Shown here: positions 24,681 to 61,844 of the stretch, piece by piece | Position numbering within the stretch: the first letter of the stretch is position 1 | How the letters are laid out: every line of letters starts with the position of its first letter | From: Conidiobolus incongruus B7586 | Taxonomy: Eukaryota | DNA: 64,000 nucleotides | NCBI GenBank assembly: GCA_000697335.1 | Contig: JNEM01010781.1 | Span: 1 to 64,000, forward strand | Direction of reading: 5' to 3' | The notes under the pieces: generated by a model | The model's input: only the letters and a program-made list of their open reading frames with translations | Database searches by the model: none | What the model was told of the DNA's origin: nothing | Translations under genes and position numbers: made by a program

Positions 24681-25242
24681 TAATAATTTTTTTGGGTTAA
24701 ATTTTGTTCTTTTATTTACCAAATATACATAATTATTCTCTGTTACAAAATAACTGTAAACTGTTAAATGATAATTTGTAAGTTTTTTCATTGAATTATT
24801 CTTTTTTAAACACTGAGTTTTAAGATTATCCTTTATTATTTTGAAAATAAATACAATGGGCTTTAAGCTATAACCAAAGAGCCTATTTTTGTATTAAAAT
24901 GAAAAATTACAAAGTTCCTTTTTATAGTTAATTTGAAAAGTTTAGAAAATATGAAGTTTGTAATTAAGTGTTGTTATATTATCAATGAAAGTTTTATCTT
25001 GATATTCAAAATTTTGTTTTTGGTGTTTTGAAGAGAGATTTGCAAAACCACTACTAAAATTAAATATTATTTTCACCTATATTAAAATGTTATTTGATAT
25101 TAAAAAACTGAGTAAAGCTTAAATCCACTTAGGTTAATATAATTTGAACCCTTTAAATTTTATCACAACGTTTAAAATTGCTTGACAAGATTCCAGCTTA
25201 ATCTTATATTTTGGAAGCATAAACATAGTCAGAATTATTTAT
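24660..25242 (-). pseudogene. IS607-family TnpA serine recombinase pseudogene
   Basis: Reads NNSDYVYASKI*D*AGILSSNFKRCD..SGFKLYS (HTH), then FANLSSKHQKQNFEYQ (cf. YARVSS.HQKEDLERQ), IDNITTLNYK (cf. DIASGLNYK), YKNRLFGYSLKPIVFIFK (cf. YKDRLCRYG.EL..IFK), KKLTNYHLTVYSYFVTENN (cf. ELADDLL.V..FVA..NG). The start appears as ATA, and there are stops. Confidence 0.8.
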
Positions 25243-32634: not shown

Positions 32635-33315
32635 TTTAACTTAATTGTTTTTAAACATAGAAAATGTAGATTATTTTATATTTCATAAAGTGTGAGTCAA
32701 AATATATACCATTTGAATATAGTAAAAATTATGGGATTAATGGGAGTTTGTCCTTTTTTATTATTAGTGTAATATTATTTATAAAAATATGTATCCCTCG
32801 TATCTGTCCCATATCAATTAATTTTAAAAATTAATCTTATATTCATCAAACCTCGAACAATGGGTCACCAAAAGGGAATATTAAAATAATATACTCTAGG
32901 ACTGGAATTATTCCTCCTAATTACCAGAGTCAAACTATGAATAATTTAGTTAAACTCCTTGGCTATAGTAGTCCACTAAACATTAAATTCAATTAAATAA
33001 TATATATAAAAAAATAACATTATTTTAATTAAAAAATTTTAAGAAAATTATTATATTAAATATATTATTATTATTTAATTTTTATATAATTATTTAATTT
33101 GATTTAATATTTAAGTATAAAAAAGAATTTAAGATAATGAATTAATTTAACTTTTATTAATTCAATCAAAATTATATGGGAATTATTTATTGATATTTAA
33201 TTAAAACTTAACATACCCATAATTTTTTTAATATAGTTAGGATATAGTATATAAATATATCTTTCATTAATATATTAAAATTAAGTATATTTAATTAATT
33301 CAACTTTATTAAATA

Positions 33316-37532: not shown

Positions 37533-39596
37533 TTAAACATCCCAATTCCAACCTAATTCATCAATAAAAATATGAAATCATAATACCAATTTATATATAT
37601 CATATTAATAGCTATTAAATTTTGAAATTTCAATTCATAATTATAAAAGAATATATTATATATCATTGAAGTTCTTACGATCAGTCAGTTAATATTTAAT
37701 TAGCTATTGATATAAATATATAAAAGGATGTCATTATGAAAACCAAAGCGTCACTCTAAGTAATGAGCAACCCAATGACTGTCTGCAATTCATAATGTTT
37801 GAATTAGGTTCTAACTATGATCAGACGCATTTACCTCTTTTTGGCCACTAACTTGAATGATAATCAAATTAGATCAAATCAATTCACAAAGAAATAGCAT
37901 TTGATATAATATATCCTTTTCTTAATAAGGAAATAATTTTAATAGCAATTTTATTTTAATTATTATTTTTTACAAGCAATTATATGATTTATTACAAGAA
38001 CTTTTCAATTTTATTAAATTATTTTTAATGTAATGATTTTTCATTGGTTAAATATTAGTTAAGAAACAAATGGCAAAATTTTTTAATTTGGATTTTTCAA
38101 ATATATTGTTAGTTTTAAAAATGAATTATATATAAAATGTATAAGAGGATTAATATTTTCAAACTATATATGTATTTATTTATAATTGTTTCATTATAAT
38201 ATTTATATTTAAATTAAACAAACAAAATTAAAAGGTTTTTATTTTAATATTATTAAAACTCAACTATAAACCTTATAAAATTATTTAAGCTTTGTAAAAA
38301 ATTTTTAAAGATAATCTTTTATTTAAAACTATTATTTAAAAATAAAACAAAATGTTAAATTTTACTATAATAACCATTTCAATAAATATTAATAAATATA
38401 ATAAATTATAATAGTATATAGTATTTATATTTAATTTTTAAGGGCAAATTGTTTTAATAATAAATTTTATATTTTGCTTAAATAAAACTATCTTTAATTA
38501 ATATATTTATTATAAATTAAAGATATTTCTTAATTTATATTATATTTATAAATTATATATAATGATAAATGATTTTCTATTTAAAGAAAATTATAAAAAA
38601 TTACCATATTTAAAATATTTAGTAAATTATAAGTTATCTAATTATAATTTAGTTAATTAAATATATTTATAAGAAAAAAAATTCTTAGAAATTTAATTAG
38701 TTTATAAAATATTAAGTTTTAGTTTTTAAAAAAAATTTTAAGTGTTAGAAGTTTACTAAAAGTATAACAAAGAATTATCATTAATAAAAAAGAATATTAA
38801 TTTCATATTATATATTTTTATATATTATATATCAAAAACATATTTAATTTTGATTTTAAGATTTTGCATTATTTGATTTCTGTAGTAATATCTAATTAAG
38901 ATAATAACAAAATTGATATTAATGTTTATATTTTGTACTAATTAAAAACAGGTACAGATCCTGATTGGCATCTTTTCATAACTAATATATTACGGTTAAA
39001 TAAAATGAAAAATTTTTATTAATATCAATAGTAATAAAGTTATCTTAGCTTTATATCCTTATTGGTTTCTTAAGCAATTGACCAGTATATTATAATAAAA
39101 AACAATAGATAGAATATTATTTTAATCGGTCCAAATATATAAATAAACCTTGATTTTGCTTTACTTTGATTAAATATGCTTCTGCTGTGGAAAAAAAAGA
39201 TATGTAAATTAAAAATAATAAAATCAAATATACTGCTAAAAAATGAGTATAAAATAAAATATCTTGATTTATTCTGCAATTTGGTATTTATATTAATTCC
39301 ATAAATTTTCATGTAATATAATATAGCGGAAAATTTTGTATATAATTAACTAGTCGGATCTCAATATTTTAATTGTTGATTTAATATTTAATAATGACTG
39401 CACATATATAAGTAATTTTAAATATTACTATATTTTAACAAAAACCTAATACTACATTCACTAAATGTAATATTCATTCTTCTAATTGATCCCACAATAA
39501 TTTCAAATTAGAAACGAAAATAAAATTGAATTCCTTTTGGACTTAGTATCAATATTAATCAGCCAACTAAAAATTCTATTGAATATAAAGATAATA

Positions 39597-42500
39597 ATGG
39601 TTAAATCTAAAAAACCAGACAATTCCACATTAAAAAAGACCAACTTTAAAAACTTGGAAAGGGTATTGGATAATAAGACCTTATTAAAATCTATAGCGGA
39701 GATATTAGACCAAATTCAACGTCCTAACCTACACCACAAAAAGTATTTTTTAAATTTTTTGAAATTACAGGAGAAATATCAAGTTGAGGAATTTACCAAC
39801 GGCTTTATATTTTTATTGAATAAAATATTAACGTGTAAGAAGGATTTGATACCCAATAGAATTTTAAAGTTTTTAGCAAATTATTTGATATTTGCAAAAG
39901 ATGAGAGTAAATTCTATATTATATTAATAATGAGTTTAAACTGAATTTTGTTGATATAGTTGATAATGACGATAATATGAAAACTGATGAAGATGACAAT
40001 ACTACAATGATTACTCAATTTGCTGAAGGAATTTTAAAATTTTATCTTCCTGGACTAGATGCTAAAGAGCGCTTAGTTCGTTTGAGATGCGCTCAATTGG
40101 TTGCTATATCCATTGATTTTATTGGAGCTGTAGAGTAAGTCAAATAGCACTGATTTTTTTTATCTGTGTTTATTCATCGATCAATATAGTGAAGATTTTT
40201 ATGTAAAACTAAGAGACACTTTAATCCAAAGAAGTTGTGATAAAGAATCCTCGTTCAGATACCAAATCGTAATCGCTTTATCTAGGTTGCAGGATGAGAA
40301 TGATGAAACCGATCCTGTTATTGATAAGTTGATCAGTATACTGCGCACTGATCCATCTGCAGATGTTAGAAAATGTGTTATTATGCATATTATACAAAAT
40401 GAAAAAACTATACCATTTTTAATCGAAAGAGCCAGAGATTTGGAGCCAAATATTAGAAAATGGATCTTTTTGAAAACTATGGATGATATTGGCGATTTTC
40501 GATTATTATCAATTAAACAAAGAGAGCATTTGTTAAAGAATGGAATTTCTGATCGTGATGAAAATGTCAAAAACGCTTGTCTCAAGATGCTGTCATCTCA
40601 TTGGATGCCCACAGTAGGAGATGACCTACTTAGTTTACTGGAGAAATTAGATGTGATGAATAGTGACGTTGCCGAAGTAACTCTTTATGCTTTCTTTAAG
40701 CTTCATCCTCAAGTGGTTCAAGATTTTTCTATTCCAGAAAATGCCTTAGATGATTTAACATCTGAATCTTCTTTCCTTATTAAAATCATATTGAAATATT
40801 GTAACGATAACAAAATGGAAGAAAAATTATTTAATTTATTGCCTTCTCCAATGGAATTAGCCGCGACCTTAGAAAAGCATCATTCACTATCCGTTACATG
40901 TGAGGATGACGTCTTGAAAGTTGAATATGATTTCATCGTCTTACAACTTCTCGAAATTGGTGCAATGTTAGATTTTGCTGACGAAGCTGGTAGAAGAAAG
41001 ATTTATGAAATGTTGAGATATTTATATTCAGTTATGGATGAAAATGAAGACATTATTTGTGCTATGGCTGTTGTTATGAAAAAGTTATCAAATAACGAAC
41101 TTGACTTTTCCCGTACTATGGTTGAAGTAGTCTCTGATGTTTGTGAAGAATTTGGATCCAATGGCGATTTCAAAGAATTTATCGGAAATTTAGAGAAAGC
41201 TGAATTTGAAGACGAAGACGAAGAAACATTAAGCGATGAAGATGCTCGCACCTTATCCATTTTGATGAAATGCTTACTTTTAGTGAAGAGTACTTTACAA
41301 CAATGTCAGCTTCCTTTAGTCAAAAACACTGTATTGTATGGATTATTGAATGATTTAGTATCTCCAGCAGTCCAGAGCTCAATTGAGGTTTTAAGACATT
41401 CAGGTTTGGTCTGCTTAGGTTTGTATTGTATGTTAGATCGTGATCTCTCTTACAAAAATTTTTCTGTATTCGCTCACTCTTGTCAAAAAGATGAAGATGA
41501 TAATAGAAATTATTGTTTGAAGGTAGATTATTATATTTATTTTTACTCTATTATTAATATTATCTAGATTATTTTTGATCTTTGCGTGATTTATGGTATT
41601 CATGAAGGCTCTTTCAAGATATCGGTAATCCTAAATTAATCATTTGTTTATTTTTTTTATTAACAAAATATTCAGCAAGAGAGTTTATTTACATTCTTTA
41701 AAAACGCCTTAAAAGATAGAGAATTGGAATTCCAAGCTATAGCATGCCAGGGTCTCGCTAGACTTTATATGGCAGACTTGTTGACGGATGATGACATTTT
41801 AAGTCGTCTTATTTTCCTTTACTTTGTCCCAACAACTCAAAATAGTTTGAAACTTCGTCAATCTCTCCATTATTTCTTTTCTGTTTATCCTCGTGCTGCG
41901 GTTAAAAATTTGAAAATCGTTCAGAAGGTGATATTCACAATTAATACTAATTAATGTATATTAATTTTAAAGTTTAGGCGTTTGTTCCATCCTTACTGAA
42001 ACTCTACCTCACCCATAAAAAGATTAGTAACAAATATGAAATGATCACGCCAATCCAAGTTGCACAACTTTTAGCTGATTGGACTGATCCAAACAATATA
42101 GAGTAATTACCTCGCTTATTAATTTCTAAGTATAATTACTTATATTTTTATAGAAATCCTGATGATGCAGCAAAAAATGTTCATGGTGAAATCGCATTGG
42201 AATTAATTAAAACTTCTATCCAGGAACCATTAGGTAATACATCTTTTTATTTAAATTTAAAATAGTTTTCATAATATTTTATTAGAAAATCGAAAACTTT
42301 TAATTCAATCATTATCTAAGCTTTCAATCAGTTCAATTACATCCCTGAACTTGATAGCCAATTTGGAATATATAATTTCTGTATTTAAAGAGGTAAATTG
42401 GTCAAGATATTTATAAAATCATTGTTAATAGTATATTTAGAAACGATCATTTCCTGATAAATTTACTCATAATACATTTACAAAGTTTTCCGACCTAGTA

Positions 42501-42619
42501 AATAAAACTAAACAATCGCTCGTGCCAGAATCCTCCGATTCATTTATAGAGAGGCATGAAACTCCCAGTGGTACTATTGACCCTCAATTAATTGAGTTTG
42601 CTGATAATATTCGAGCTGG

Positions 42620-42651
<32 letters not shown>

Positions 42652-42779
42652 ATCAAGTACTAACTCTATTTAAAGAAAAAGCTAATAGCGTGTCAAAGAC
42701 AGAGTACCTCTCAAAGCAACTTAAGAGAGAAATCGATGCAATGTTATCAGAGTGTTCAGATGAAGAATCAGATTTTTAG
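39597..42779 (+). CDS. YCG1: Condensin subunit Ycg1/Cnd3/CAP-G, multi-exon
   Basis: AKERLVRLRCAQL, ALSRLQ, DPSADVRK, ERARD, DFADEAGRRK, CLGLYCML, LRQSLHYFFSVY, QLLADWTDP HEAT-repeat motifs. Confidence 0.9.
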
Positions 42780-42993
42780 AATTATATTGCCTACTTAAAC
42801 CTGGCAATTAATGCTAATTCTTATTTATGAACCTTTGCTAATGTATTATTAACATATATAATTTATCTCAACTTTAATCCTTGATTGTCTTTATACTGAT
42901 TATAAGATTCATTCATTAATCAAGTAATAAATTTTTCAATTTTTAATTTTCGTCCTTGTTTTGTGAGTATTTCCGAATTAACTATTTTAATAT

Positions 42994-43030
42994 AATGTTT
43001 TGGATACATTTTCAATGTATCCAAAACATT
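42994..43030. repeat. Perfect 17-bp inverted repeat with 3-nt spacer
   Basis: AATGTTTTGGATACATT-TTC-AATGTATCCAAAACATT. Confidence 0.95.
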
Positions 43031-43334
43031 CTATCACATATTTTAAATTTACAAAACTGACACTAGACAAATATATAATCAGGTTCAATTATAATATATA
43101 TATTGCCAATAATATTTTTATTATAACCCAATATATGACATGAGATTTATCAAAGAAAAATTATATTTATAGGATATTTTGATTGTAATATTTTAAATCA
43201 TTATGTTAAATTTTTTAATTAAAAATGTAATCCCATAAATAATTAAATGTTACATTCTCTTTAAAAGGTTAATGAATAAATTAATTATTTTGTTAACTCT
43301 ATATATATATATACATTCATAATAAAAAAGTAAA

Positions 43335-44408
43335 ATGAGTGATCTTACTGATAATGAAATTAACTTTGGAATTAAATTTAAAGGAGCTTGTGTTCGTAAT
43401 GATATTCAAGAAGCTCTCAATTTATTGAAAGAAGAACCTGGCTTAGTTTGGTTCAGAGACGCCGATGGTAGATCACCTCTCCATTGGGCTAGTGCTTTAG
43501 GAAGCGAGGAGTTGGTTATTGCACTATTGGAAAATAGACACCCATGGAATGTGATTGATAATGACGGCAACTCTGCTGGCGACGAAGCCGATGCTCACAA
43601 ACATCCTGCAGTGTATCAACGATTGGTTGAGGCTGGTGTCAGAGCTGAAATGATTCTTTCTATCATCAACAGTCAATTCGAAGCTGAAGAGGAAGATGAA
43701 GATCAAGAAGAAAAGCAAGGAGACGAAAATGACGCTATTGATTCCAATCAAAATATTCCAAATGCTGACTATTTAAATATGCCATTAAAGTTTGATGATG
43801 ATAAAATTTTAGATTTTGATAATAATGGAGTTATGATGGGCTGGGAAAAGCCTCTGATGGATCGTCATTGCGAGATTATTGCTCCTAAGCCTGGTTTACA
43901 TGTAATTAACGTTGGATTCGGTATGGGATTCATTGACCGTGCTTTACAAGCAACTCAACCCGCTTCTCACACCATCGTAGAGGCTCATCCTGATGTTTAC
44001 AAGAAAATGCAACAGGACGGATGGTTAGACAAGCCTAATGTGCGTGTAATTTTTGGTCGTTGGCAAGATAAGATTGAAGAAATTTGTGACAGGGAGTACG
44101 ATGGCATCTTCTTCGATACTTTTGGAGAATATTATCAAGATCTCAAACAATTCCACGAACTTTTACCCAATATTCTCTCCCCCGAAGGTACCTATTCTTT
44201 CTTCAATGGCCTTGGTGGCGATGTGAAATTGTTCCACGATGTATACTGCCAAGTTGTCGAATATCATTTGAAAGAAATTGGTATTTCAATTGAGTTTGTA
44301 ACCATGGAAATGGATCCTGATTCCTGCAAGATTTGGGATGGTGTTAAGAGAAGATACTGGCAATTAGAGAAGTATCATTTACCCATTTGTAAATTATTAC
44401 CCTGTTAA
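43335..44408 (+). CDS. RMT2: Protein arginine N-methyltransferase Rmt2 (ankyrin + GAMT-like)
   Basis: Ankyrin GRSPLHWA..HPWN; VMMGWEKPLM, VINVGFGMGFID, HTIVEAHPDV, YDGIFFDTF, SFFNGLG. Confidence 0.93.
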   Translation: MSDLTDNEINFGIKFKGACVRNDIQEALNLLKEEPGLVWFRDADGRSPLHWASALGSEELVIALLENRHPWNVIDNDGNSAGDEADAHKHPAVYQRLVEAGVRAEMILSIINSQFEAEEEDEDQEEKQGDENDAIDSNQNIPNADYLNMPLKFDDDKILDFDNNGVMMGWEKPLMDRHCEIIAPKPGLHVINVGFGMGFIDRALQATQPASHTIVEAHPDVYKKMQQDGWLDKPNVRVIFGRWQDKIEEICDREYDGIFFDTFGEYYQDLKQFHELLPNILSPEGTYSFFNGLGGDVKLFHDVYCQVVEYHLKEIGISIEFVTMEMDPDSCKIWDGVKRRYWQLEKYHLPICKLLPC

Positions 44409-44585
44409 ATGGATAGATAATAGAGTTTCATACAATCTAATATGATGATATATTTCTGGCTAATAATATTTTGAATTAATAAATCATAATCACTAAAATA
44501 TTTCATTGAATATTAAAATAAGAATACAGTTATTTTACATAGTGCTTAAAAAACACATTCAAAATCATTTATTATAACAAAGTGT

Positions 44586-45938
44586 CTATTTCTTTTTAGG
44601 AGCAGTAACATTAAATTTGAAATAGATAATATCACCATCTTCAACGATGTAATCTTTACCCTTTTGATTGTATTTACCAGCAGCCTTGACAGCAGATTCA
44701 CTTCCCAATTCCTTAAGATCGTTAAATTTCATGACTTCAGCCATGATGAAACCACGTTCAAAATCGGTGTGAATAACACCAGCAGCTTGAGGAGCCTTGG
44801 AATTCTTACGAACAGTCCAGCAACGAACTTCATCAGGACCAGCAGTGAAGAAATAGATGAGTTGTAAAGCATTATATCCTGATACGATGATCTTAGGGAA
44901 AGCAGAGATAGTTTCTAATTCCTTCAATCTTTCTTGCTTAGCGGCAGGTTCCATTAAACTGAGTTCATATTCCAAAGAGGCAGAAAAAGGAATAAGGAGA
45001 TCTCCAGGACTGTTGGCATCAATCCAGGCCTTGATCTTAGGGAGCCACTTGTTCTTCTTTCTAACATAGTCTTTTTCACTGCAGTTAGCCAAATAAATAA
45101 CAGGCTTGGCAGTGATCAATTGAAGACTATTGATGACTTCAACTTCCTTGTTGTTCCAATCTCCCTTACGAACATCTTTTCCTTCATCAACGACCCACTT
45201 GCGAACCTTTAAAAGAATTTCGTATTCTTCCTTATTTTGCTTATCTTGAACACCACCACCAGCACCAGCTCTTTTAACTTGCTTTTCAAGGGTTTCGATA
45301 TGTTTGTTCAAAAATTCTTCATCCTTTAATCTTAATTCAGAATGAATGATTTCCAAATCTCTAATGGGATCAAGTTCTCCTTCAACGTGAATAACATCTT
45401 CATCAGAGAAAGCACGGCAAACGTGGAAGATGGCGTCGACGGCACGGACATGACTTAAGAAAGCGTTACCTAAACCAGCACCACCAGCAGCGCCTTTAAC
45501 TAAACCGGCAATATCAATGACAGTAAGATAGGCTGGAACTTCAGATTTGGGTTTATAAGTTTGGTTTAACCAATCAAAGCGCTCATCAGGAACAGCAACT
45601 CTAGCTTCAGCGGGATCAATGGTACAGAAAGGGAAATTTTCAGCAGGGGCAGCAGAATTTGTAATAGCATTAAAGAAAGTAGACTTTCCAACGTTAGGTA
45701 AACCTACAATACCAATTTTCAAGTTGTTAGAGGGACGACCCAATAAAAGTTTTTCTTCTTGGACAGCTTTCTTAGGAGGCATTTTCTTTTTTAATAATAT
45801 TGAATTAGAAGTGAATGAACGGTAAAAATTTAAATGTAATTTAACGTTAATAGATGATTTTAATATTGAAGATGACCTCGTAACTAAATTAAAATTAACG
45901 AGTAAATTCATTGATAACGAATTGATCAACCTCATCAT
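44586..45938 (-). CDS. OLA1: Obg-like ATPase Ola1/YchF; canonical start MPPKK at 45782 with a 52-codon in-frame upstream extension
   Basis: [62 protein letters not shown]. Confidence 0.95.
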
Positions 45939-46494
45939 TCTTAATTTATTTTATCTCTATACAATAAATTCAATAAATTTAAATTGTGGGATATTATTTC
46001 ATTTCAAAATAATCATTTCATTTTTCTTAAATTATAAATTATTAATATATTCATTATTTTTAAATATATAATAAATCACAAATGATTAATTTATATTGAA
46101 ATTAAATCATTAGAAATAAAGAGAAATATAATATAATAAATTTTTTTATAATATTTTGATAGTTAAATGGTATTTACTCTATATAGATTGAAAAAGATTT
46201 TTATTATATATATTGTTGTATAAATAGCTGATATATATCTAATAATGATTTTTGTATTAATCAAAATAAAACATTTAAAATAATCCTTAAAAATATTTAT
46301 AACTTTTGAAATATTTAAAATAGCTGAGTTAAAGCTTTAGAAAAGACGATTTATAAAAAGTAGTAGTTGAATAAATAATATTAAAATCAACAAAAATAAT
46401 TATGGTTTTAAAATTTTTTCTTAAATTAAAATTGAAAAAACAACAGTTAGATATGATTTGAAAAAGGGTAGTTTGATATAAATATACAGTGGAA

Positions 46495-48680: not shown

Positions 48681-51577
48681 TCGATGTTATTTTATAATTA
48701 TCAGAGTGAAGTGTTAAATAAAGTGAATAAGGATAAATAGCGCAATCTATGTGATAATATAGGATAATGGGAATTGAATGCAGATTGTTGGGAATCGTTG
48801 TCTCAATATCAAAAGAATACTCAATAATTGAATTAAATGGATATTATTTACTTATTGATATTGAGAATAAGTGTCGAGTATTATGAATTGAATTAAACTA
48901 TTATATTTTAAATTAATTTATTTAATTCGTAAAATAGGAATAGGAAAAAGATATAATAATCAAATATAAGTAAATGAAATTAAGTTTAAATCAATCAATT
49001 CATGCTAAATTTTCATTTAATCAAAGCCAAGGTCCGCTTGTAATAGACACCAGTGATTGGCTCATTTGGATTATTAATGAATTGAATCAATTGTGCACTG
49101 ATCACATCATCCTCTTACAAATTAATTTTTTATTTTTCCTTGTCATATTAAATGAGCTATTTTAATTAATTGATAATGTATTGGGAATAATTTTTATTAA
49201 TGTACATAGATTAAACGAATTAAAATTAACTTTAAACAAGTAAAAATTTTAATTTTATTGGGTTAATTAATGTTACCAGCTGACTTGAAAAATATTTGGT
49301 ACAAGTACTCAATGAAAAACTGAACATTATTCAAAATGCATAGCTTAATCTAATATACATGAAAGCATTTATTGGACTCTACAAAGAAATATGTAAATAA
49401 TACTAAAATTTACATAATTGGTAGCCATATAATGCCACCAGTCCGATATTTAGTATTGTAAGTATATATATATTTCTCTATTCAATTAATGCTCTAAACT
49501 TTACCATACTTATTTCCAGAGAATATTGAAATTTCAAATTGAGGTTTATTAAATCTTTTTATGGAAATACGCATATACTAATTGATTAAGCGTTAAATAA
49601 ACTTGTTTCACAAGCTATTCAACAAACAATGAATTGCAAAGTTATTCATTTGAAACCACATTAAAAGCATTCAGTTTAATATAGCTTTTAAGAATTCAAT
49701 GTATTATTATTACGAATTATACTAAATGTTTCTCTGATGTCTGCATTTTTGATTTATTTGAGCATGATACATTATTGGTAATTTAAATATTAAAATTAGA
49801 CAAATCACCCTTCAATTTGAGTTAGGTTAAAAATACTATTATACTGAGCTGAATCGCAAAAATGTGTCTTCTTATTTGTTTGTTTTAACAGTAAAATCTC
49901 TCAAAGCACCATTGAATAAATATACTTAAAATTCGTTCAAAATATGATAACTATAGATGCTGATTTTTGAAATTTGGAGAGTTAATTTGAAAAATAGCGT
50001 GTGATTCAAATGTAGATGATATGTAAAATTATATCATTTAATTATTGTTGATATGACTTTTGAAATTATCATACCAATTATTCCCATATTAAGAGCACAT
50101 TTAACAATATCAAACTTTGAAGTATCATTATTTGTTATGTAGAAATTCAATGATTTAAAAAACCACTTTTCCATTTTAGATTAAAATTTAAAGAAAATAT
50201 ATTTTGGTTTTATAGATAATTTACTAAGCATTTGTCATAATAAAGCACCCTTGTATTTTACAATGTATGTTAAAGAAACTAAAATCGGAAAATATTCATT
50301 ATGTAAATTTTCAAACGTTGGTTGAATGTTTTTTGCAAAAATAGCGTAAGCAAATGAAACATGAACATCTTGTACAGTTACTTGAATTTTTTGTTTCTTT
50401 TTATTTAAACGGAATTGTGAATTGATAAACAACAAGAAATGTTTTATCTCTAGACTATATTAAAAATTGATTATAAACTTGGAAATATAAAGTTTATGTA
50501 TTAGGGCATTTTTATGTCCACCAAAATGGTATGAGATAATCGCTAAAATAACTATTGATTTTACTTTAAAAACATATTACATGACACTTGTAATATTGGT
50601 CTTTTAACCAACTCTTTGTTTAAAAAATATAATAAATCATTGGGCAAAATTAATGATAAATATTATTGTCAGCTTAAAAATTTTTATCTTTAAGATTTGA
50701 ATTTTTATTATATTTATTAAAATTTTTCAAAATTGATTATAACTTTAGTTTAGCAGTTTTTGTTGTATATATAGTGTCAGAATTGATGTTAATCATCTGA
50801 AAATATAGGAATATTTTTGAAATATCATTCTTTATTTGAATTCAGGGTCAATTTAAATAACTTTTGAAACAAATAAATATCAAATAATAATCTAGTCTCA
50901 TTAATAGTATTAGTTATTGGTGATATATAATGGATAGCTATTTTGATAAAATATATATTAAAAATCTTAATAGCTTTATACATACAGTATAACTTATTTA
51001 TTTATTTATTGAATATTAAAGGATAGATATTTTTATTAATTAATACAAGTGAATATATGATATATAATTATATATTAAATTTATTTATATAACTAAAATT
51101 TCAAACTAGTAAATCAATATAGTATGGCAGATAAAAGTATTTTTCAAATCTATATATTGTAAAATTATAGAAATCCTGAATTATTAATTCCATCATATAT
51201 GTTACTTTTACTTTGTTCGTTAAAAATTGATAATAAATTTATTATTTTAGAAATTATAATAAATAATTAATAATATATTAGATTTGTTATTTAGGTCTTT
51301 TATTAGTAATTGAATAATCATTATTAATACTCTATTTAATATAATTTTCCATCTTAGTTTAATTTTATGTTGATTAAAAATATTTTGATAAAATTGTCAC
51401 TTTTATTCTTATAATAAGTATTCTTTATATATATATTTTAATACAAAGGATAAATTAAAAAATGATAATTATAAATTAATATAAATATATTAATAAAAAT
51501 ATTTTTTCTAATTAATTTTAATTATGATAAAAAAATCAAAGTAATATCAATATTTATTAATCTTGCACTATATTTCT

Positions 51578-51974
51578 TGTTAAAAAACTAGTTCTTTAAA
51601 TTCTTATATATACTTTCATATAATCTAATTAACTATAAATTATATGATTAATTTATACTTATATAATTAAATTAATTATATAAATAGTATTAAATTATCT
51701 AATAAACTAGGTTTTTTTTTCTTCTCAATTCTTACTATTTTTTACTTTTACACTATTTTTAAAATTAAAACTATATTCTATTAATATTATAGGATATTAA
51801 CACTACTTAATATAAATTTTAATATATTAGTAATTTATTTTAGTTTAAAGCTTAATTAAATTTTATTTATATTTATACACTATAGTTATATTATATTATT
51901 ATATTTTACACCACACTACTTTTATATTAAATTTTCTTTTATACTATATTAATTTAACTACCACTATACTTATA
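51578..51974 (+). repeat. 5' LTR
   Basis: Aligns end-to-end with 57281-57680. Followed by TAATAACAATAATAAAA, compatible with a fully G-to-A converted TGG-initiated primer-binding site. Confidence 0.93.
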
Positions 51975-53141
51975 TAATAACAATAATAAAACTATTAAAA
52001 ACTTATTAGAAATTAATAACTATTTATATTAAACTTAATTAATACTATTTTAAATTTTATCTATAATTTATTTTATTTAAATTTAATACTATATACTATA
52101 ATATTACTAAAAAAGGAAATACCCTTATATTATTTTAATGATGATAATAACTTAATTACTAAATAAATCTAAAACTTTAGTTTTTAAAAACTTATTACCC
52201 TTTAAAAAACTTATATTAAACAACTTTTAATTAAAAAAATATATCTTAAAGAGTTTAAATTTAACAAACTAGTTACTTCACTATAGTTAATATATTAAAC
52301 TACCTCATTAATATTTTTAAAAACAAATTAACTATTTATGATAGTTTTAAAAACCTTTATAAACTTGAAAACTACCTTAAAAATATAAAGAATTATTTTA
52401 ATTTAATTTTAAAAAAGATTTAAAGAATATTTTTAAATTAACTATTTTTTTTTAGAAAAATTTATTTATATTTGGTAGTTAACTTATTATAAATTTAATC
52501 TTAAAAAATTTTTAGGAGGATAGTTTATTATAAAAATATAAACTTTTAAACAATTAGAAAAAGCTTTTAAAAAGAGATATTACTTAAAAAATCAAGTTTA
52601 ATTAATAAGAGAAAAGTTTTCTTAACTTAAATAAAAAACTTCTACAAAATAATTAATTGAGAAATTTAATGAGATATATTTAAATATATTAAATATCACT
52701 AAAGAAGAATAAATCTACAAATTATTATAATATCTTAATTTTTAAGTGAAGCTTTAATTAATTAATAAAAAATACTTTGATAATATGTTTTTTTTTAACA
52801 TTTGTAATATAGTAATTATAATTGATAATATTTTTTACTTTATAACTAGATTTTTTTACCTTAAAAATTAATTTTTTAAACTTTACTTTAACCCACTTAA
52901 ATTTCAAATAATAAATATTTCTACTTTAAAGCTTTATAAGAAAACCTTTAATAAAAAAGTTAAAACCTACTTGAAAATAAATAAAAGTTGTTATTACTAC
53001 CAAAAAACTTAAGTTAACTATAAAACTAACAAATACCCTTTAAAAAAACAACTTCTATTTAATTTTTAACAATTTTAACTTATCAACCATAAATCAAACT
53101 TGAATAATATTAATATAACTTTAAAATCACCTTTTTTATAA

Positions 53142-53932
53142 TTAGTTAGCAAATTTTAATTTAATCTATAAAAATTCTAATAAACTATTAATTCCACAAA
53201 TTAAATTATTTATACTAAAGAAATCTAATTGATTAAATTATTAAAAACTAAAAATATTCTAGTAATTAATTTACTTTATAATTTTTTACCTTTAACTATC
53301 ACTTTATTATTTATGTTAATTAATTTTTTTATTAATATACTTGTTAGTGTTTTAATTAATTTTAATTATTTTAGTTATATTATCTCTTCTTTTGTTGTTG
53401 TAAAATTATTTTTACCTACTTAAAAAAATAACTTGATAATTAAATATACTAACAACTTAATAAAACAAGCATTTAATACTATATTTAAATATTTATTATT
53501 ACCCCTTAACTATTTTTAACATATTAAATTTTTAGTTAGCAAATTTTAATTTAATCTATAAAAATTCTAATAAACTATTAATTCCACAAATTAAATTATT
53601 TATACTAAAGAAATCTAATTGATTAAATTATTAAAAACTAAAAATATTCTAGTAATTAATTTACTTTATAATTTTTTACCTTTAACTATCACTTTATTAT
53701 TTATGTTAATTAATTTTTTTATTAATATACTTGTTAGTGTTTTAATTAATTTTAATTATTTTAGTTATATTATCTCTTCTTTTGTTGTTGTAAAATTATT
53801 TTTACCTACTTAAAAAAATAACTTGATAATTAAATATACTAACAACTTAATAAAACAAGCATTTAATACTATATTTAAATATTTATTATTACCCCTTAAC
53901 TATTTTTAACATATTAAATTTTTAGTTAGCAA
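53142..53932 (+). repeat. 390-bp tandem duplication inside the retrotransposon
   Basis: 53142-53531 is repeated at 53532-53921 with no difference seen; TTAGTTAGCAA occurs at all three junctions. This explains the two identical 64-aa ORFs. Confidence 0.93.
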
Positions 53933-54439
53933 CATTAATTATAATTTTATACTAGGTTAAAATTAGTTTAAATATCACAGTTTTATATTTATAAATATTA
54001 CTTTAGAAAGTTACAAATTTATTTTTTTTATATTCTAAAAAAAATTAGTAGAATTAATCTTAAAAAACCTATATTACCCTATTATAAAATTATTAAATAT
54101 TTTACCTAACACTAACTTTATAATTATAGTAAATAATTCTATTATTATAAGTAAAAATCAATGTAAAAAGTTAATTAAAAACTTAAATAATTTATAAAAA
54201 TATATATTTGTTTATTATTTATCTATTAATACTTTATTTGTTGAATTTAATAAAGTTATACTTAATAACTACTTCTTATACAATATAATAAGTTAATTTA
54301 CTAATGTTTTTAAACTTGTAAATAAATTACCACTTAAATATAATATTAAGTATAAAATTAAACTACTCTTTAATATATAATTATATTTAAAGTTTACTTA
54401 CTATTTATTTCTTGAATAATATTAAACTTTAAAAGAAGA

Positions 54440-57250
54440 AATCTAAAAACTATTTAAAAATAGATATATTAAACCTTCTTCTTTACTATAAAAATCTCTA
54501 ATCTTTTTTGTATAAAAGGTTAACAGTGGTTAAAGATTATATATTAATAATTATATTTTAAACTCTAAAATTATTAAGGATAAAATTTTATTATTAAACC
54601 TACATGATATTAAAGATAAACTATATAAATCAATTATATTTACTAAATTAAATATTAAGAATAGATATTATAAAATTAAAATTAAAAAAAATTCTATCTT
54701 TTTAATTATTTTCAATATTCTTTTAAGTTACTATAAATTTACTGTTATATACTTTAAATTGTGTAATACCTTTGTAACTTTTACTTAATTTATCAATTCC
54801 CTTTTTAACCTTGTTTTTAATAATTTTATTATTACTTACTTTGATAATATTTTAATCTATTTAAAAACTAAAGAAGAATATATTTAACATATTAATTAAA
54901 TTTTATAAATTATTCAAGAATATAAATTACTTTTAAAATTATTAAAATATATCTTTAATACCTCTTCTGTTTTTTTTTATGGTTATATTGTTTCCTTTTA
55001 AAAAATTAGTATTGATTTAACTAAACTCAATAGTATTAAAGCTTTTACTATATTTATAAACAAAGATTAACTTATGTTTATACTTAGATTATTAAATTAC
55101 TTTAAAGATTTCATTGATTTTTTTGTTGAATTTATTACTTTTCTTACTAATCTTTTAAAGAAAATCTCTCTTTTTAAATAAACCCTACTATATATTTTTT
55201 ACATAAATACTTTAATTTTCTATATTACTAATGTTTTTACTTTATCTATTTTTAATCTAAAACTATTTATTATTATTTTTACTAACTCTAATTCTTTTAT
55301 AATTAGTAAATAATTAACCTAGTTTAAATTTAATTTATATTTTACTTTACAACTATAAAATAAAATAATAAATAAAAGAGAATAAGTTGAGTTTAACTTT
55401 ATAAATATTACTTTAAAATTAATAATATTCTAGTTAAAAAAAAATAAAACTAGCTGAATTAAAATACCTAGTCTATAAATAAAAACTTTTTACTTTAATA
55501 GAAATAATCAAAAATCACTCACACTTCTTATTTTATAATTTTTTCTTAGTACTTACAAATTATAAATTACTTATCTATTTAAATACTCAAAAGTATTTAT
55601 TAAGAAAATAAATTAGATAGATTAAAACTATCTAAGTTTACTTTTTCTTTATTTAATATCTTTTAGGTTAATAAAATTATATTGTAGATACTTTATTAAA
55701 AAATTTTATATACTTATTTTTTTATTCTAATTGTAAAAATCTAGCAAATATTAACTTAATGATTATTAATGAAAGAAATAAAAAATTTATTAAATTACTT
55801 TAAAAAACACTGTTAAATAATGATTTCTTTATTTTAGTTAAAGAAGAACTTTTTAAACCATTAGAAAACTAACTAAAATATGTTAAAAAATTTAAAATTA
55901 TCAATAACTTACTATATTATTATAATTATTTATATATTCTTAACATTCTTAAAATTTAACAAATAATATTTAATGAATGTTATAATTTACTTATTAGAGA
56001 ATATTAAAACTAGTTAAAAACTGTTGAGAAAATTAAAATAAAGTATTACTAACCTTCCCTAGTTAAATTAGTTTAGAAATACACTAATACCTATAATATA
56101 TACTAAAGAACTAAATATAATACTCAACTAAAATATAATAAATTTATTCCCCTACAAGTTTCTAATAAAATTTAATAATAAATCTAACTTAATTTTATAG
56201 AAATTTTTAAATCAACAAATAATTATAATAATTTACTAATTATAATTGATTCATTTTCCAAATATATTTATTTTATTTTTTATTTCAAAACTTCTATAGC
56301 TAAAGATATTATACAATTGTTATTTTTTAATATCTTTACCTATTATAAAATTCTACAAACTATTATATCTGATAAAGATATATATTTTAACTTTTAATTT
56401 TAAAAGTTACTATTTTTTTCCTTTAAGATTAACCTAGTTATATTTACTATTAATTATTATTAAACTAATAAACTTGTTAAAAAAACTATTAAAACCTTAA
56501 AGTAAATAATTAAAGTTTATATTAACACTAATTAATTAAATTAAAACACTTATATCTATTAACTTTAATATTTATTCAACACTTTTATTAATAAATTAAT
56601 AGGTTTTAACTTTTATTTTATTAATTATAACAAACATCCTAATTTAATAATTACTCTAAAACTTTAAATTAACTTACTTTTAAATATTGTTGAATTTTAA
56701 TCTAATATCAAATATATCAATTCCCTTGTTAAATTTAACTTAGAAGAAAATTAAAAGATTATAGAATAACAATACTTAAAGTTATTTAGAAACCCTTTTA
56801 AATATAAAACTAGTATGTTTGTATATTTAGAACAATTTACCTTTAAACCTACCCTACTTAAATTTAGCTTAAATCCCAAATATTTACTATTATATTATAA
56901 TCCCTATAAAATTTAATCTATTGATTTAAATTTTGAAAATATTACTTTAGAATTACCTTCAACTTTAAAAATCAACTTTACCTTTCACATATCTAAAATT
57001 AAACCATACTTTAAAGATTTTAACACTTTTCTTAATTAATTAAAAACTTTAAAATTAGATCTAATTATTAATTAAAATAAAGAAGAAGAATACTATGTTG
57101 ATTATATAATTAAGTTTAAATTTATTAGGAATAAGCTTTATTTTTATATAAAATAGATAGGTTATTTTATTAAAGAAGCTACATAAGAACCTTTAAAAAA
57201 TATTAAGAATACTTTAACCTATTATACCTATTTGCAAAAAATTAAAGAGT
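54440..57250 (+). pseudogene. Degenerate pol (RT, RNase H, integrase, chromodomain)
   Basis: RT: IFFV*KVNSG*RLYIN, FTKLNIKNRYYKIKI, YKFTVIYFKLCNTFVTF, YFDNILIY (54837-54848 = YFDD). RNase H: IFTNSNSF. Integrase: IIDSFSKYIYFI, IISDKD, YNPYKI, LELPSTLKINFTFHISKIKPY. Chromodomain: EEEYYVDYII...YIK*IGY..EAT*EPLKNI. Confidence 0.9.
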
Positions 57251-57280
57251 GTGTCTCTTTTAAAAAACCTACTAAGGGAG

Positions 57281-57680
57281 TATTAAGAAACTAATTCTTT
57301 AAATTCTTATATATACTTTTATATAATCTAATTAACTATAAATTATATAATTAATTTATATTTATATAGTTAAATTAATTGTATAAATAGTATTAAATTA
57401 TCTAATAAATTAGGTTTTTCTTTTTTCCTCTTAATTCTTACTATTTTTTACTTTTACACTATTTCTAAAATTGAAACTACATTCCATTAATATTGTAGGA
57501 TATTGGCACTACCTAATATAAATCTTAATATATCAGTGACTCATCCTAGTTTGAAGCTTAATTAAACTTTGTTTACACTTGCATACTACAGCCACATTAT
57601 ATTACCATGTTCTGTACCACACTACTTTTATATTAAGTCTTCTTCTGTACTATATTAGTTTAACTACCACTACACTTACA
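57281..57680 (+). repeat. 3' LTR
   Basis: Aligns with the 5' LTR; ends ...CACTTACA, immediately followed by the TSD TTTCT. Confidence 0.93.
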
Positions 57681-58343
57681 TTTCTAATTATTATAATATA
57701 AACTTGATTAGTTGTTTTCAGCTAAAATAGCTTTGTAATATAATATAAAAAGTTTTTTGTTTATTAGTCTTATTTTTTTCACTGTTTTATTATATATTAA
57801 ATCTTTTATAAAATATAAATCAGATTTAAATAAAAAATTAACACTAATAAGCAATTGTAAAAAGCTTAAAAATAAGAACTTAATTGAAAAATATTTTTGG
57901 ATTTTTATTTTAAATATAAATACTTATTATGACCCATATGTTCAATATATTTAATGTATTCATAGTTATTTTAATAAAAATATACCTAAATGTTATTTAT
58001 ACCATTACCACCATTTTAATTTTGAACTATAATTATTAATATTATTATTATTATTATTATCATTCGAAAAAATATATTAAATATTAATATAAAAGTAGGT
58101 TACCAATTTAATACTAATTAATAAAATATAATGAATAAATTCATGAAATATAACATTTGTAAATTAAATATAAGTTCTAGGATAAGGAAAAATTATTAGC
58201 AAGTAACTAGATTTGAATTTAAAAATAGCACCATATAATTGCTTAAATTAGCAAAATCAATATAATGAATTATTTATTATCTAAATTATTTAATTAAATT
58301 AATAATAACACTATATAAGTTGTTATAAATGTAAAATTGCCAT

Positions 58344-58424
58344 CAACAACTACAGATTTGAACTGTGTGTGGGTAGTTTCCATCAGATATCAAACTGTTT
58401 CCTTAACCAATCAGAAAAACTGCC
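58344..58424 (-). pseudogene. Decayed Ser/Leu-type (long variable arm) tRNA pseudogene
   Basis: Minus strand reads GGCAGTTTTTCTGATTGGTTAAGGAAACAGTTTGATATCTGATGGAAACTACCCACACACAGTTCAAATCTGTAGTTGTTG: A-box-like TGGTTAAGG, B-box-like GTTCAAATC, but broken stems. Confidence 0.6.
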
Positions 58425-59116
58425 ATCAATAAACTGAAAAATTTGAGATTAAAATTTAATCCAATTGATTTATTAGCAACTCAGTTAAATAAAAATTAAT
58501 AGATGTTGATCATATTTAAAATGTAAATATATGTTAATTTGTTATAAAATAGCTATATAACTATGGTATTCATATATTTTCTTTTGTAACTATTGTAATT
58601 GATACCCTTATAATTATAGAATATATGAAATTTCAACCGATTTACAATGAATAGTAATTTATAAAATCGTCTAAAGATTTAAAATAAGACTATATTCTCA
58701 GCAATTTAATTTAATTCTGCTTTAATAGTAATTTTCTATATTGAAATATTTTCATCAAAAAACTTGTTATAAATATTATTGATATTAGACAATATATGAT
58801 AATATATTGAAATATATAAAATCCTATTATAATATGGAAAGATCATTTTACAAAATACAAATATTTAAAAAAAACAAGTTTAAGCAAAATTCAAATTAAT
58901 GCCATATACAAAATAAGCTCACATTATAATTTAAATAGAAACCTTGTATATACATAAATATCAAAGTTAATCAAATATATTTAAATGACATGTGGTCAGT
59001 ATAATTTTATTAAATGTGAGGGAGATTCAGATAATATTTTAGAATATTGAAATAAACGAAAGCATTGATCATATTCAAATAAATATAATGGAGAGTAAGG
59101 CAAATTTGAACCAATT

Positions 59117-61844
59117 TCAGTGAACAATGGTTGCATCAAGCTTAAGCTGATCGTAGCCAATAGAGCTATCAGTATTTGTCTGAGCCTTGGTTTGAATGTA
59201 GTTTAAGCTTCCTTCAAAGAATTTGAGTAAGGATGCGAGGTAGTCTGAGCTGTTGGTACCATCCAAAGATTGGGGTTGAGATTCACTTAAGCTGGCATAG
59301 TTGCTCTTGATCAAATCAATTAAACCATTAATGTGACTGGGTTCAATTGATGGACATTGGTGTTCAAAGAAATAGAAATAACGATTAAGAATTTCAATCA
59401 TTAGTTCGATGGACTTGACTGGATCAATGACAGAGTGGGCTACCTTGAGTGCACGGTTTAAGGTATCCATCACTCTCTTAGCATCACGATGCTGAACTAC
59501 GGGACGTTGGGTAACAATATCAGTGGCAGGAGGTATAGCAGGTTGGTCAGATTCTGGTTGGTAAAGCTGAGGAACAGATGGAACAGGCCAAAACAAGTGA
59601 GCAGAGTGGTACAAAGCACGACATTGGTCGTGTTTCTTGAGCAACTTACCTGAATGCATGACACATTTGGTTGTGAGGGCATCATAGTTATCAGCATCAA
59701 AGTCACGAGTAGAGTGAAGAGTGCCAATCAATAAATGAATGGCTTGGAGCTGCACATTGGATTCACTAATGCACTCTTCATAAATAGTTAAAGCTTGAAC
59801 GAAAAATTCATATCCAAGAGTTTGGATACCAAGTTCATCACAAGCAAGCCCGGCATTTAAATAAAGCTTATAAGCTAAATCATGGCACTCGGCCTTGCTG
59901 TATAAAATCGAAATGGTCTGATGTAAAAATCTAAACAAATCAGAGCTACGATTGTACCATGCATCATCTTCTGATTCGGGTCTAGGAAGGTAGGATCTGG
60001 CAAGCTTCAAGCAAGAAGAGACGATTGAGGGGAATGTGTATTGCACACGAATACCTCCTTCACTAAGTTCTCTTCTAACGATATTAAGAAGTCTGAACAT
60101 TTGATCATTGTCGTCGGTGTAAATCAAATGAATCAACTTTGCTAGTTGATGCTGCTCGTTGACAAAATCCTCATCGTTATCGCCATTAATTCCTCTCAAC
60201 GATTGACCTCTTCCCGCCAATTTTGAAGAGGTTCGACCAAATGTGTTGGCATGATGGGGGCCACCATCAGGTTGATCTTTAGCCAAGACAGATACAAGAT
60301 GGAAAACCCCTTCACACTCAGAAGGTTCAGAGATACGTTGGTTTTGTTTGAGCAACGCAGCAACGAGAGCGAGGCCAACAGATCTTCTGGTGGAATAAGG
60401 CTGAGAATCAAATAATGATTTATAATGAACAAGTTTCAAAACTGTCAATGCATTAGGATAAATACGAATTGGTGCCAAGAGGAGTTGAAGCAAATTGTCC
60501 TCGGTAGCGGCATTGTCACCTGTATGAGCAGCAGGATCCAAGTTCAAAGCATAATCAAGCACCTGATCAACATATTCCAGATTCTTAGGGTAGCAGTTAA
60601 GTGAAAGATTGATTAAAGAGACTTGAAGAGCGGTAATATCATGGAGAGGGATATCGGGACGAGCTTTGACAAGTTCAACTACTTGAGTCCAAAATACTTC
60701 GAATAATTTGACGTCATCAGGGATTCCACGAGAGACAGAAGATTTATCATCAGATTCTTCCTGAGTTTCAGCTTGAGATTCGGCTTCACGAGATGCATAG
60801 GCAGCCAGACGATCAATGAGTGAGATATAAATGGATTTAGGTGAAACACGAGGATTAAGCTGAGCAACCGCAGAGAGGAAAGGGGTCAAAGTACGGAGAT
60901 GGAAATCATCTTGGAACACTTGGATAACGGCTTCCATCAAATATTCTTGAGCTAAGACATCTTTACAGTTGATAATTTGTTCAAGTATATCAGGAAGAAT
61001 CAATGAAGAATATATATTTAAATCAATTCCCTCAAGTGTAGCTAATCTGACAAGATTGGAACCGACAAGAGTTCTAAGTTCTTTACGCTCCATCTCCCTG
61101 CGTTCTCTATCCCTGGAGTGTCCTTGATGCTGTAATCTAACCCAAAGCTTATTCATTTCAGTGAAATTAATTAAAGTGAACTGGATGGAATCTTTCAAGC
61201 ATCCAGAAGAGCTTTCTTCTTCTGAGGTGGGTAAATGATCTTTAGTCATTCCTGATAAATAATGTCTTAAAAACAATCCTCTGGTAGGATGCTGCACACC
61301 ACGACACATTTCCAACATATCTTTCATAATTTCACGAACAGGAGCATCGGGCATAGACATGTAAACTGAACCAACTGTGATCATTAAATAAAGTCTTGGA
61401 ATGATATTTCCTGCATATTGTACCAACTCATATAAATCAGCCAAGTGATGACGATTGGATTGGTGAGCATCAGCCAAATAAGTTGTCATAAATCTAAGAT
61501 TATCGAAGATTGCCATATAAAGTTCGTAGTAATGTTTTGGAGAAAGAACAGAAGTACGAAGTTCAGCAAGCATTCCTGAACAATGTTTCAAAGCATCCAT
61601 CAAACGATGTTGATCCTAATAAATAGATAATTAGATGTTGAACAATATTTTTAAAGTAATTATAAATTTCAAAGAAGTCACAATAAAAATATGTGCTTAT
61701 TACCAAACAACGTTTCATCCCGAGAGATTGATGTTTAACTACATTAAGAGCATCGTCAAGTAGTTTAATTTGCTCTTCTACTACTAAAGTAGCAGAGCTA
61801 TTGTTAATTGAAGTTCCTTTACTGCCTATTGAAGAAGATGACAT
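59117..61844 (-). CDS. VPS35: Retromer subunit Vps35 (exons 61844-61704 and 61615-59117)
   Basis: LMDALKH..MLAELRTS.LSPKHYYELY, LYELVQYAGNIIPRLYL, RGVQHPTRGLFLR, EMNKLWVRLQHQG, KLLKKHDQCR. Confidence 0.96.

What the first reader, a model, noticed from the sequence alone, without database searches (positions are those of the whole stretch)
51578..57680. RIP-like transition-only hypermutation in an apparently non-Dikarya fungus
Seen: by hand alignment the two ~400-bp LTRs differ at about 51 positions, all C/T or G/A with no transversion (plus one 3-nt indel in a pyrimidine tract). Roughly 29 are in CpA/TpG context, 18 in CpT/ApG and 4 in CpC/GpG, and no CpG remains in either LTR. Pol motifs decay the same way (YFDD>YFDN, Trp codons>TAG/TAA), while neighbouring single-copy genes are untouched. 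Established: repeat-induced point mutation is characterised mainly in ascomycetes (CpA in Neurospora) with RIP-like patterns in some basidiomycetes; simple 5mCpG decay would not explain CpT/CpA/CpC hits on this scale. Inference: a repeat-targeted cytosine mutagenesis genome-defence system with broad context operates in this lineage.
Basis: partly seen in the sequence, partly recalled or inferred. Interest (0 to 1): 0.85.

Follow-up and report, generated by a model that had tools for sequence, protein, structure and literature searches.

The report
RIP-like transposon mutagenesis in Conidiobolus
A dead jumping gene in a Conidiobolus fungus, outside the fungal group known for repeat-induced point mutation, has two end repeats that differ only by C-to-T type changes and has lost an estimated 70% of its conserved C:G pairs, likely through a methyltransferase-driven genome defence that probably lacks the usual RID enzyme.

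Summary
Window 51578-57680 is a dead Ty3 chromovirus-type retrotransposon with a 5-bp target-site duplication. Its LTRs differ at 51 of 397 aligned sites, all transitions. The host is Conidiobolus (Zoopagomycota): Ola1 is 90% identical to C. coronatus and sister to it at 100/100. At conserved pol codons 88 of 127 required C:G pairs are lost, equally on both strands. Across other family copies 1381 of 1427 variant places are transitions. The signal stops at the LTR ends.

Two corrections. CpC is spared: C-runs erode from the 3' C, 13 to 0. CpG is hit hardest: none in 6.1 kb, though only 3 of 15 tested LTR differences lie at ancestral CpG.

Published tables give C. coronatus DNMT1 and a DIM-2-clade protein but no RID. 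Best reading: a RID-independent, DNMT1/DIM-2-driven C-to-T mutator on silenced repeats (0.5). Homology sensing, sexual timing and the enzymes are untested, so it is not shown to be RIP. RIP outside Dikarya was suggested before from indices only, and a 2025 screen scored C. coronatus 'no RIP'.

The parts
51573..51577 (.). left target-site duplication (5 bp)
   Evidence: same 5 bases flank both ends
51578..51974 (+). 5' LTR, 397 bp, GC 12.8%; carries the A/T state at 42 of 51 differences; starts TG, ends TA
51981..53141 (+). gag relic, riddled with stops; Retrotrans_gag match at about 52536-52730
   Evidence: Pfam PF03732 E 0.0018, below the gathering score; frames
53142..53932 (+). perfect tandem duplication, 401 bp at period 390 (53142-53542 = 53532-53932), 55 C/G bases, no difference; recent event or assembly artefact
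54291..55628 (+). RT-RNase H relic (RVT_1 about 54582-54989; YFDN at 54837); frame changes near 55440
   Evidence: PF00078 E 6.4e-6, below gathering; phmmer, 30,057 hits at E<=0.001
55483..57273 (+). integrase, SH3 and chromodomain relic
   Evidence: PF17921 E 0.021, PF24626 E 0.011, PF00385 E 0.083, all weak and below gathering; alignment to homologs
57274..57280 (+). purine tract next to the 3' LTR (likely polypurine tract)
   Evidence: sequence; function inferred
57281..57680 (+). 3' LTR, 400 bp, GC 21.3%; outer 250 bp much less mutated; starts TA, ends CA
57681..57685 (.). right target-site duplication (5 bp)

Best explanation
This retrotransposon copy was hit after insertion by many C-to-T changes on both strands, at CpA more than CpT and hardly at CpC, with all CpG gone, and the cause is likely a methyltransferase-driven mutator on silenced repeats that probably needs no RID. 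Shown: the in-place origin of the LTR differences, the spectrum, strand symmetry, sharp edges and the family-wide transition excess. Inferred: the element is packed into silent chromatin; DNMT1 with UHRF1 marks CpG and a DIM-2-clade enzyme marks CpA/CpT; the marked or enzyme-bound cytosines become thymine far above background over repeated rounds, so C-runs erode from their 3' end; the domain weakens at its edge, sparing the outer 3' LTR. Whether this happens in mitosis or around zygospore formation is open.
For: 51 of 51 LTR differences are transitions; per-site change CpA 29/34, CpT 18/48, CpC 4/11 (CpA against the rest p=9e-6). Conserved pol codons (n=152): 54 unchanged, 76 explained by C>T/G>A alone, 0 by the reverse, 22 need a transversion; shuffles give 9, 24, 2, 115, and 2 mixed. 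Required C lost 35/51, required G lost 53/76 (p=1.0); CpA 16/18, CpC 19/35. Single hits in CC pairs fall on the 3' C 10 to 0 in pol (12 to 1 at a looser cut-off) and 3 to 0 in the LTRs (13 to 0, p=2e-4). Family variant places in run X1: 1381 of 1427 are transitions, with similar counts in X2-X4. C:G loss is about 90 times the density of transversion places. The substrate index drops from 1.33 to 0.32 across the left end and returns from 0.69 to 1.06 across the right. Ola1 control against C. coronatus: 7 C>T/G>A, 5 reverse, 33 transversion-type changes. C. coronatus has DNMT1 and UHRF1, with DNMT4/RID and DNMT5 not detected; KXN73869 sits with the Dim-2 clade at 99.9/97 (PMC10538959 supplements). 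Dim2 drives mitotic CpA>TpA in Zymoseptoria; heterochromatic repeats of Neurospora are RIPed without RID.
Against: No gene of this organism's methylation machinery could be examined (no genome held); the enzyme list comes from a sister species with a fragmented assembly (contig N50 5,199). That table scores Dim2 'ND' for C. coronatus and prints KXN73869 in the Coemansia row, so the DIM-2 call rests on its tree. The Zymoseptoria mutator spares CG and CT is barely methylated there, unlike here. A 2025 screen scored C. coronatus 'no_rip', with AT k-mer enrichment in repeats of 0.87-1.03. A second, short two-copy repeat in the window has an ordinary spectrum, 23 transitions of 53. The 401-bp tandem duplication is unmutated. 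In the LTR stretch tested, most family depth still holds C at CpA sites, 90-98%. The 69% figure is against distant homologs (best-hit identities about 20-32%), leaves out the 22 codons that need a transversion, and may include loss inherited from source copies. One element, one family, one sample.
Confidence: 0.5

Rival explanations
1. True RIP: duplicated DNA is recognised by homology during the sexual (zygospore) stage and mutated in bursts, by a divergent RID-like enzyme or by DIM-2 recruited to paired repeats.
For: Pure transitions on both strands, CpA preference, CpC spared, edges that match the repeat ends. Zoophthora radicans scored 24.2% RIP by index, and methyltransferases with two DNA_methylase domains occur in Entomophthorales (PMC11105155 passages).
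Against: RID/Masc1 not found outside Dikarya in one survey and 'ND' in C. coronatus; the 2024 authors say their candidates cannot be read as RID homologs. A perfect 401-bp tandem repeat is unmutated. The two linked LTRs are hit very unevenly along their shared sequence, 39 to 3 in columns 148-399. CpG is lost more completely than CpA.
Confidence: 0.22
2. Passive decay: the repeats are densely methylated in CG and non-CG contexts, and 5-methylcytosine deaminates spontaneously over a long time, with no special mutator.
For: CpG is lost first and completely. The order CpG > CpA > CpT > CpC could mirror methylation levels. Repeat 5mC is reported in Linderina and Phycomyces. Unchecked notes on other early-diverging fungi read similar, milder patterns this way.
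Against: About 69% loss against at most about 0.75% transversion places, and 0 of 397 between the LTRs, needs a far larger excess than the roughly tenfold usually given for 5mC (recalled, no call). Non-CG methylation in surveyed fungi is 0-5%, and 5mC is called scarce in Zoopagomycota.
Confidence: 0.2
3. A cytosine deaminase, or an oxidation-and-repair pathway, edits the element, for example on cDNA during reverse transcription.
For: Would give pure C>T change without needing methylation.
Against: cDNA editing gives G>A on the sense strand only (established knowledge); here C and G are lost equally and one LTR holds 26 C>T and 16 G>A. The preference lies 3' of the C; 5' neighbours show little (changed fraction 0.49-0.64).
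Confidence: 0.05
4. Artefact or import: the element is a misassembled or contaminating piece of an ascomycete that underwent ordinary RIP, or the two LTRs come from different copies.
For: Only 0.70-0.72 of sampled words of 49500-59400 are held by the best runs. No contig spans the element; flank contigs reach 30 and 28 letters into the LTRs, short of the tool's 31-letter rule for bridging.
Against: Matching target-site duplications. Those flank contigs match with 0 differences, and the same runs hold tens of thousands of contigs of this family with the same spectrum. An element with this many stops could not have moved in already mutated.
Confidence: 0.03

Closest known systems
RIP of Neurospora crassa and other Pezizomycotina (RID, with DIM-2 on heterochromatic repeats; PMC11969663, PMC3318451)
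   Same: C:G>T:A only, both strands, CpA preferred, confined to the repeat, element destroyed
   Different: Zoopagomycota host; RID not detected in the sister species; CpG lost completely and CpT heavily hit; homology sensing and premeiotic timing untested
Dim2-dependent mitotic mutator of Zymoseptoria tritici (PMC8016269)
   Same: C>T in repeats at non-CpG sites; a DIM-2-clade protein exists in the sister species
   Different: There over 98% of C>T are at CA and CG is spared; here CG is gone and CT is hit; ascomycete with RID present
CpG/TpCpG hypermutation of basidiomycete transposons (PMC3318451)
   Same: complete CpG loss in repeats; DNMT1 present in the genus
   Different: most changes here are non-CpG: 12 of 15 tested LTR differences, and the other 3 need a second, non-CpG hit
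RIP-index signal in Zoophthora radicans and allies (PMC11105155)
   Same: same order of fungi; Ty3 elements
   Different: that evidence was window indices only, Conidiobolus was not in that analysis, and no context spectrum appeared in the passages read
Ty3/gypsy chromoviruses (Tf2-like)
   Same: LTRs, 5-bp duplication, gag-RT-RNase H-integrase-SH3-chromodomain order
   Different: dead relic; best proteins only 21-34% identical over RT

Membership tests
RIP (Neurospora type) | C:G>T:A transitions in great excess in repeated DNA | tested here: met
   51 of 51; 1381 of 1427; 76 against 0 reverse
RIP (Neurospora type) | both strands of genomic DNA hit | tested here: met
   C lost 35/51, G lost 53/76
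RIP (Neurospora type) | CpA preferred target | tested here: met
   among non-CpG sites CpA 29/34 against 22/59, p=9e-6; CpG loss is stronger still
RIP (Neurospora type) | single-copy DNA spared | tested here: met
   by composition only: flanks and genes have negative composite index and normal CpA/CpG; Ola1 control
RIP (Neurospora type) | triggered by duplication as such (homology sensing, about 400 bp and over 80% identity) | tested here: inconclusive
   perfect 401-bp tandem duplication unmutated but may be recent or an artefact; 330-bp, 75% repeat has an ordinary spectrum but is under the thresholds
RIP (Neurospora type) | premeiotic timing | not testable with these tools
   needs crosses
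RIP (Neurospora type) | RID/Masc1 methyltransferase homolog | not testable with these tools
   no genome held; 'ND' in C. coronatus; none reported outside Dikarya
Dim2 mitotic mutator (Zymoseptoria type) | mutations nearly all at CA, CG spared | tested here: not met
   CpT 18/48, CpG 0 left
Dim2 mitotic mutator (Zymoseptoria type) | functional DIM-2 and mitotic action | not testable with these tools
   DIM-2-clade protein in the sister species by a published tree
CpG decay of methylated transposons | CpG depleted in repeats only | tested here: met
   0 in 6103 bp against o/e 0.70 in AT-rich controls
CpG decay of methylated transposons | most changes at ancestral CpG; TG/CA pairs between copies | tested here: not met
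   3 of 15 differences; no TG/CA pair among the 51
Ty3/gypsy chromovirus | LTRs, target-site duplication, RT before integrase, C-terminal chromodomain | tested here: met
   Pfam scores all below gathering, chromodomain weak (E 0.083)

The most novel reading that the evidence does not exclude
Conidiobolus runs an active, RID-free, repeat-directed mutator as strong as ascomycete RIP. The DIM-2 arm of RIP would then predate Dikarya and be the ancestral fungal genome defence, with RID a later addition, and kingdom-wide screens would have missed it in AT-rich, poorly assembled genomes.
Probability: 0.4. Interest if true: 0.85.

Novelty: new variant of a known kind. Interest (0 to 1): 0.62.

Why it matters
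RIP is described as observed only in Dikarya, and a 2025 survey of 1,239 genomes confined its signature to ascomycetes and scored C. coronatus as lacking it. This element gives alignment-level evidence of RIP-strength, non-CpG C-to-T mutagenesis in a Zoopagomycota fungus whose sister species seems to lack RID. It makes two questions testable: whether DIM-2 and DNMT1 alone can act as a repeat mutator, and whether such a defence is older than Dikarya. It also warns that LTR-based dating and k-mer screens mislead in such genomes.

Tried and rejected
No whole genome is held, so there was no genome-wide RIP scan and no search for RID, DIM-2, DNMT1 or deaminases in this organism. No RNA holder was listed. 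Viral contigs gave no relative of P0198. The phmmer search found no close intact family member, best 34%. Summed contig depth was not used as a copy number. A strand bias suggested by residual C:G of 321:168 in pol was rejected at required positions (p=1.0; p=0.06 at the loosest cut-off). Leakage into the flanks was not seen at 300-bp resolution. The next-longest CpG-free gaps (37826-38993, 24351-25169) have normal substrate indices, 1.21 and 1.06. PMC6533610 was not held. The eLife supplements held no PF00145 counts. PMC8105982, PMC13297926 and the PMC11258239 supplements said nothing on Conidiobolus cytosine methylation. Chytrids are reported to lack RIP. Earlier-finding searches were empty. 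No structure, complex or RNA searches were run, as they do not bear on the question.
Full report
What is there. Window 51578-57680 is an LTR retrotransposon of 6103 bp and 14.7% GC between a SAM/PH-domain gene and VPS35. The LTRs are 397 and 400 bp and share a 5-bp target-site duplication. The 5' LTR reads TG...TA and the 3' LTR TA...CA, so each has lost one terminal dinucleotide by the same kind of change. Frames read through their stops match gag, RT, integrase zinc finger, Tf2 SH3 and chromodomain, all below Pfam's gathering scores. The RT finds 30,057 relatives at E<=0.001; the best 150 are 21-34% identical. It is a dead Ty3 chromovirus-type element.

Host. Ola1 (44586-45941) is 396/441 identical to Conidiobolus coronatus; Neoconidiobolus follows at 78%, and no named Dikarya protein is among the 120 rows listed. 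A tree of the window protein and 21 of those 120 hits, without Dikarya rows, joins it to C. coronatus at 100/100. This rests on one gene. The organism is a Conidiobolus (Entomophthorales, Zoopagomycota), not identical to the C. coronatus reference.

The LTR pair. There are 51 differences in 397 aligned columns, all C/T or G/A, plus one 3-nt gap; contexts are CpA 29, CpT 18, CpC 4, CpG 0. LTRs are identical at insertion (established), so these arose here. Per available site, CpA changed in 29 of 34, CpT in 18 of 48 and CpC in 4 of 11. No TG faces a CA, which independent CpG decay would produce at half of its sites. The 5' LTR holds the A/T state at 42 of 51. In columns 148-399 the split is 39 to 3; in columns 2-130 it is 3 to 6, so the inward-facing copy is the more mutated. 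That boundary was chosen after seeing the data.

The coding region. Of 150 unnamed homologs, 136 were kept for RT-RNase H and 48 for integrase. At 152 columns conserved in at least 80%, the window codon is unchanged in 54, reachable by C>T/G>A alone in 76, by the reverse in 0, and needs a transversion in 22; shuffles give 9, 24, 2, 115 and 2 mixed. Leaving those 22 out, bases that the residue demands are lost at 35 of 51 C and 53 of 76 G, with no strand bias. CpA is lost at 16 of 18 and CpC at 19 of 35. The CpC loss is secondary. Where one C of a CC pair is lost it is the 3' one: 10 to 0 in pol (12 to 1 at the 60% cut-off) and 3 to 0 in the LTRs, and all four LTR 'CpC' hits are double hits. 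The target is a C followed by A, T or G. The Ola1 control shows no such bias: 7, 5 and 33.

Confinement. The element has no CpG and CpA o/e 0.58; 15 AT-rich control stretches have 0.70 and 1.13. The substrate index changes within one 300-bp step at both ends. Against generality, a 330-bp inverted two-copy repeat (236-561, 38049-38352; 75% identical, 10-12% GC) shows 23 transitions in 53 differences, and a 401-bp tandem duplication inside the element is perfect.

The family. Four DNA runs, of one sample and one study and possibly the window's source, lay 36,425-45,071 contigs on 50500-58700. Variant places are transitions in 1381 of 1427 (X1), 1442 of 1497, 1334 of 1374 and 1338 of 1380; the tool warns that some differences went uncounted. 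On 57512-57626 all 19 variant places are transitions in both runs laid, 2 of the 4. Adjacent variants there expose ancestral CpG at 57552/3, 57584/5 and 57595/6. Three of the 15 LTR differences in 57542-57596 fall on them, and each is TA against CA or TG, so it needs a non-CpG hit as well. At most 10-24% of depth can hold these CpGs intact, while CpA cytosines are kept in 90-98%. These shares are unphased and favour shared, reference-like sequence. The lopsided CA/TG splits suggest that much CpG loss was inherited from source copies, or that the G alleles are new. CpG thus looks first to go, and many LTR copies look much less mutated than this one.

Rate. A loss of 88 of 127 C:G pairs against 46 transversion places in 6103 bp is a ratio of about 90, or about 157 after correction for multiple hits. 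The two figures have different baselines, so this is an order of magnitude only.

Mechanism. The supplements of PMC10538959 (supplements only: table rows, and part 1 of 3 of the tree file) list DNMT1 and UHRF1 for C. coronatus, with DNMT4/RID and DNMT5 not detected. They place KXN73869 with the Dim-2 clade at 99.9/97, although the table marks Dim2 'ND' and prints that accession in the Coemansia row. PMC5751038 (passages) found RID/Masc1 only in Dikarya. PMC8016269 (passages) shows a Dim2-dependent mitotic CA>TA mutator. PMC11969663 (passages) shows RIP of heterochromatic repeats without RID. DNMT1 for CpG plus DIM-2 for CpA/CpT fits the spectrum, the edge gradient and the missing RID. Every enzyme step is inferred from a sister species. 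I give it 0.5, true homology-sensing RIP 0.22, passive 5mC decay 0.2, a deaminase 0.05 and artefact 0.03.

What is in print. PMC11105155 (passages, supplement search, one supplement whole) reports RIP indices of 24.2% in Zoophthora radicans and 2.4-5.7% in allies, with 'major caveats'; Conidiobolus was not in that panel. PMC12543289 (abstract, sections 8 and 9, part of the supporting list, supplement rows) confines the signature to ascomycetes and scores C. coronatus 'no_rip'. Passages were read of PMC3318451, PMC7862722, PMC11258239 (plus a supplement search), PMC13297926, PMC7882544, PMC6572847 and PMC8105982. Searches found no report of alignment-level RIP-like mutation in Conidiobolus. The library lacks most subscription papers. 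Two such may bear on novelty: Clutterbuck's 2017 survey of CG loss in basidiomycetes and 'lower fungi', and Bewick's 2019 methylome survey. Neither was seen; their content is recalled. The Zenodo data behind both surveys were not seen. Unchecked notes from this scan describe similar patterns, several read as mainly CpG-driven, in Jimgerdemannia, Dimargaris and a Mucoromycota fungus; they are leads only.

Verdict. The feature is real and works like RIP in outcome. It cannot be filed as RIP, because the trigger, the timing and RID are untested. It is a new variant of a known kind, interest 0.62.

Noticed in passing
window 53142-53932: Perfect 401-bp tandem duplication (period 390) inside the decayed element, with 55 C/G bases and no difference; contig depth is lower over part of it, as expected if other copies hold it once. 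Recent event or assembly artefact.
   Followed up: partly
window 236-561 and 38049-38352: Inverted two-copy AT-rich repeat, 75% identical, no CpG in either copy, ordinary spectrum (23 transitions of 53); possibly an old non-autonomous element.
   Followed up: partly
window 57420-57680: The outer 250 bp of the 3' LTR, towards the VPS35 3' end, is much less mutated than the same sequence in the 5' LTR; no matching protection is clear at the left end.
   Followed up: partly
window 57584-57585, 57595-57596: Family allele shares suggest that about a tenth of depth keeps intact CpG, and loose ends show much GC-richer versions of internal stretches; younger, less mutated copies may exist.
   Followed up: no
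window 49500-59400: The best runs hold only 0.70-0.72 of sampled words although flank contigs match without difference; unexplained (index filter, or errors in the assembled element).
   Followed up: no
window 32977-33113 and 8066-8155: Two imperfect palindromes (about 140 and 90 bp, 76%) in AT-rich DNA.
   Followed up: no
PMC10538959 figure 1 source table: The Conidiobolus accession KXN73869 is printed in the Dim2 cell of the Coemansia row, while Conidiobolus is scored as lacking Dim2; likely a misplaced entry.
   Followed up: partly
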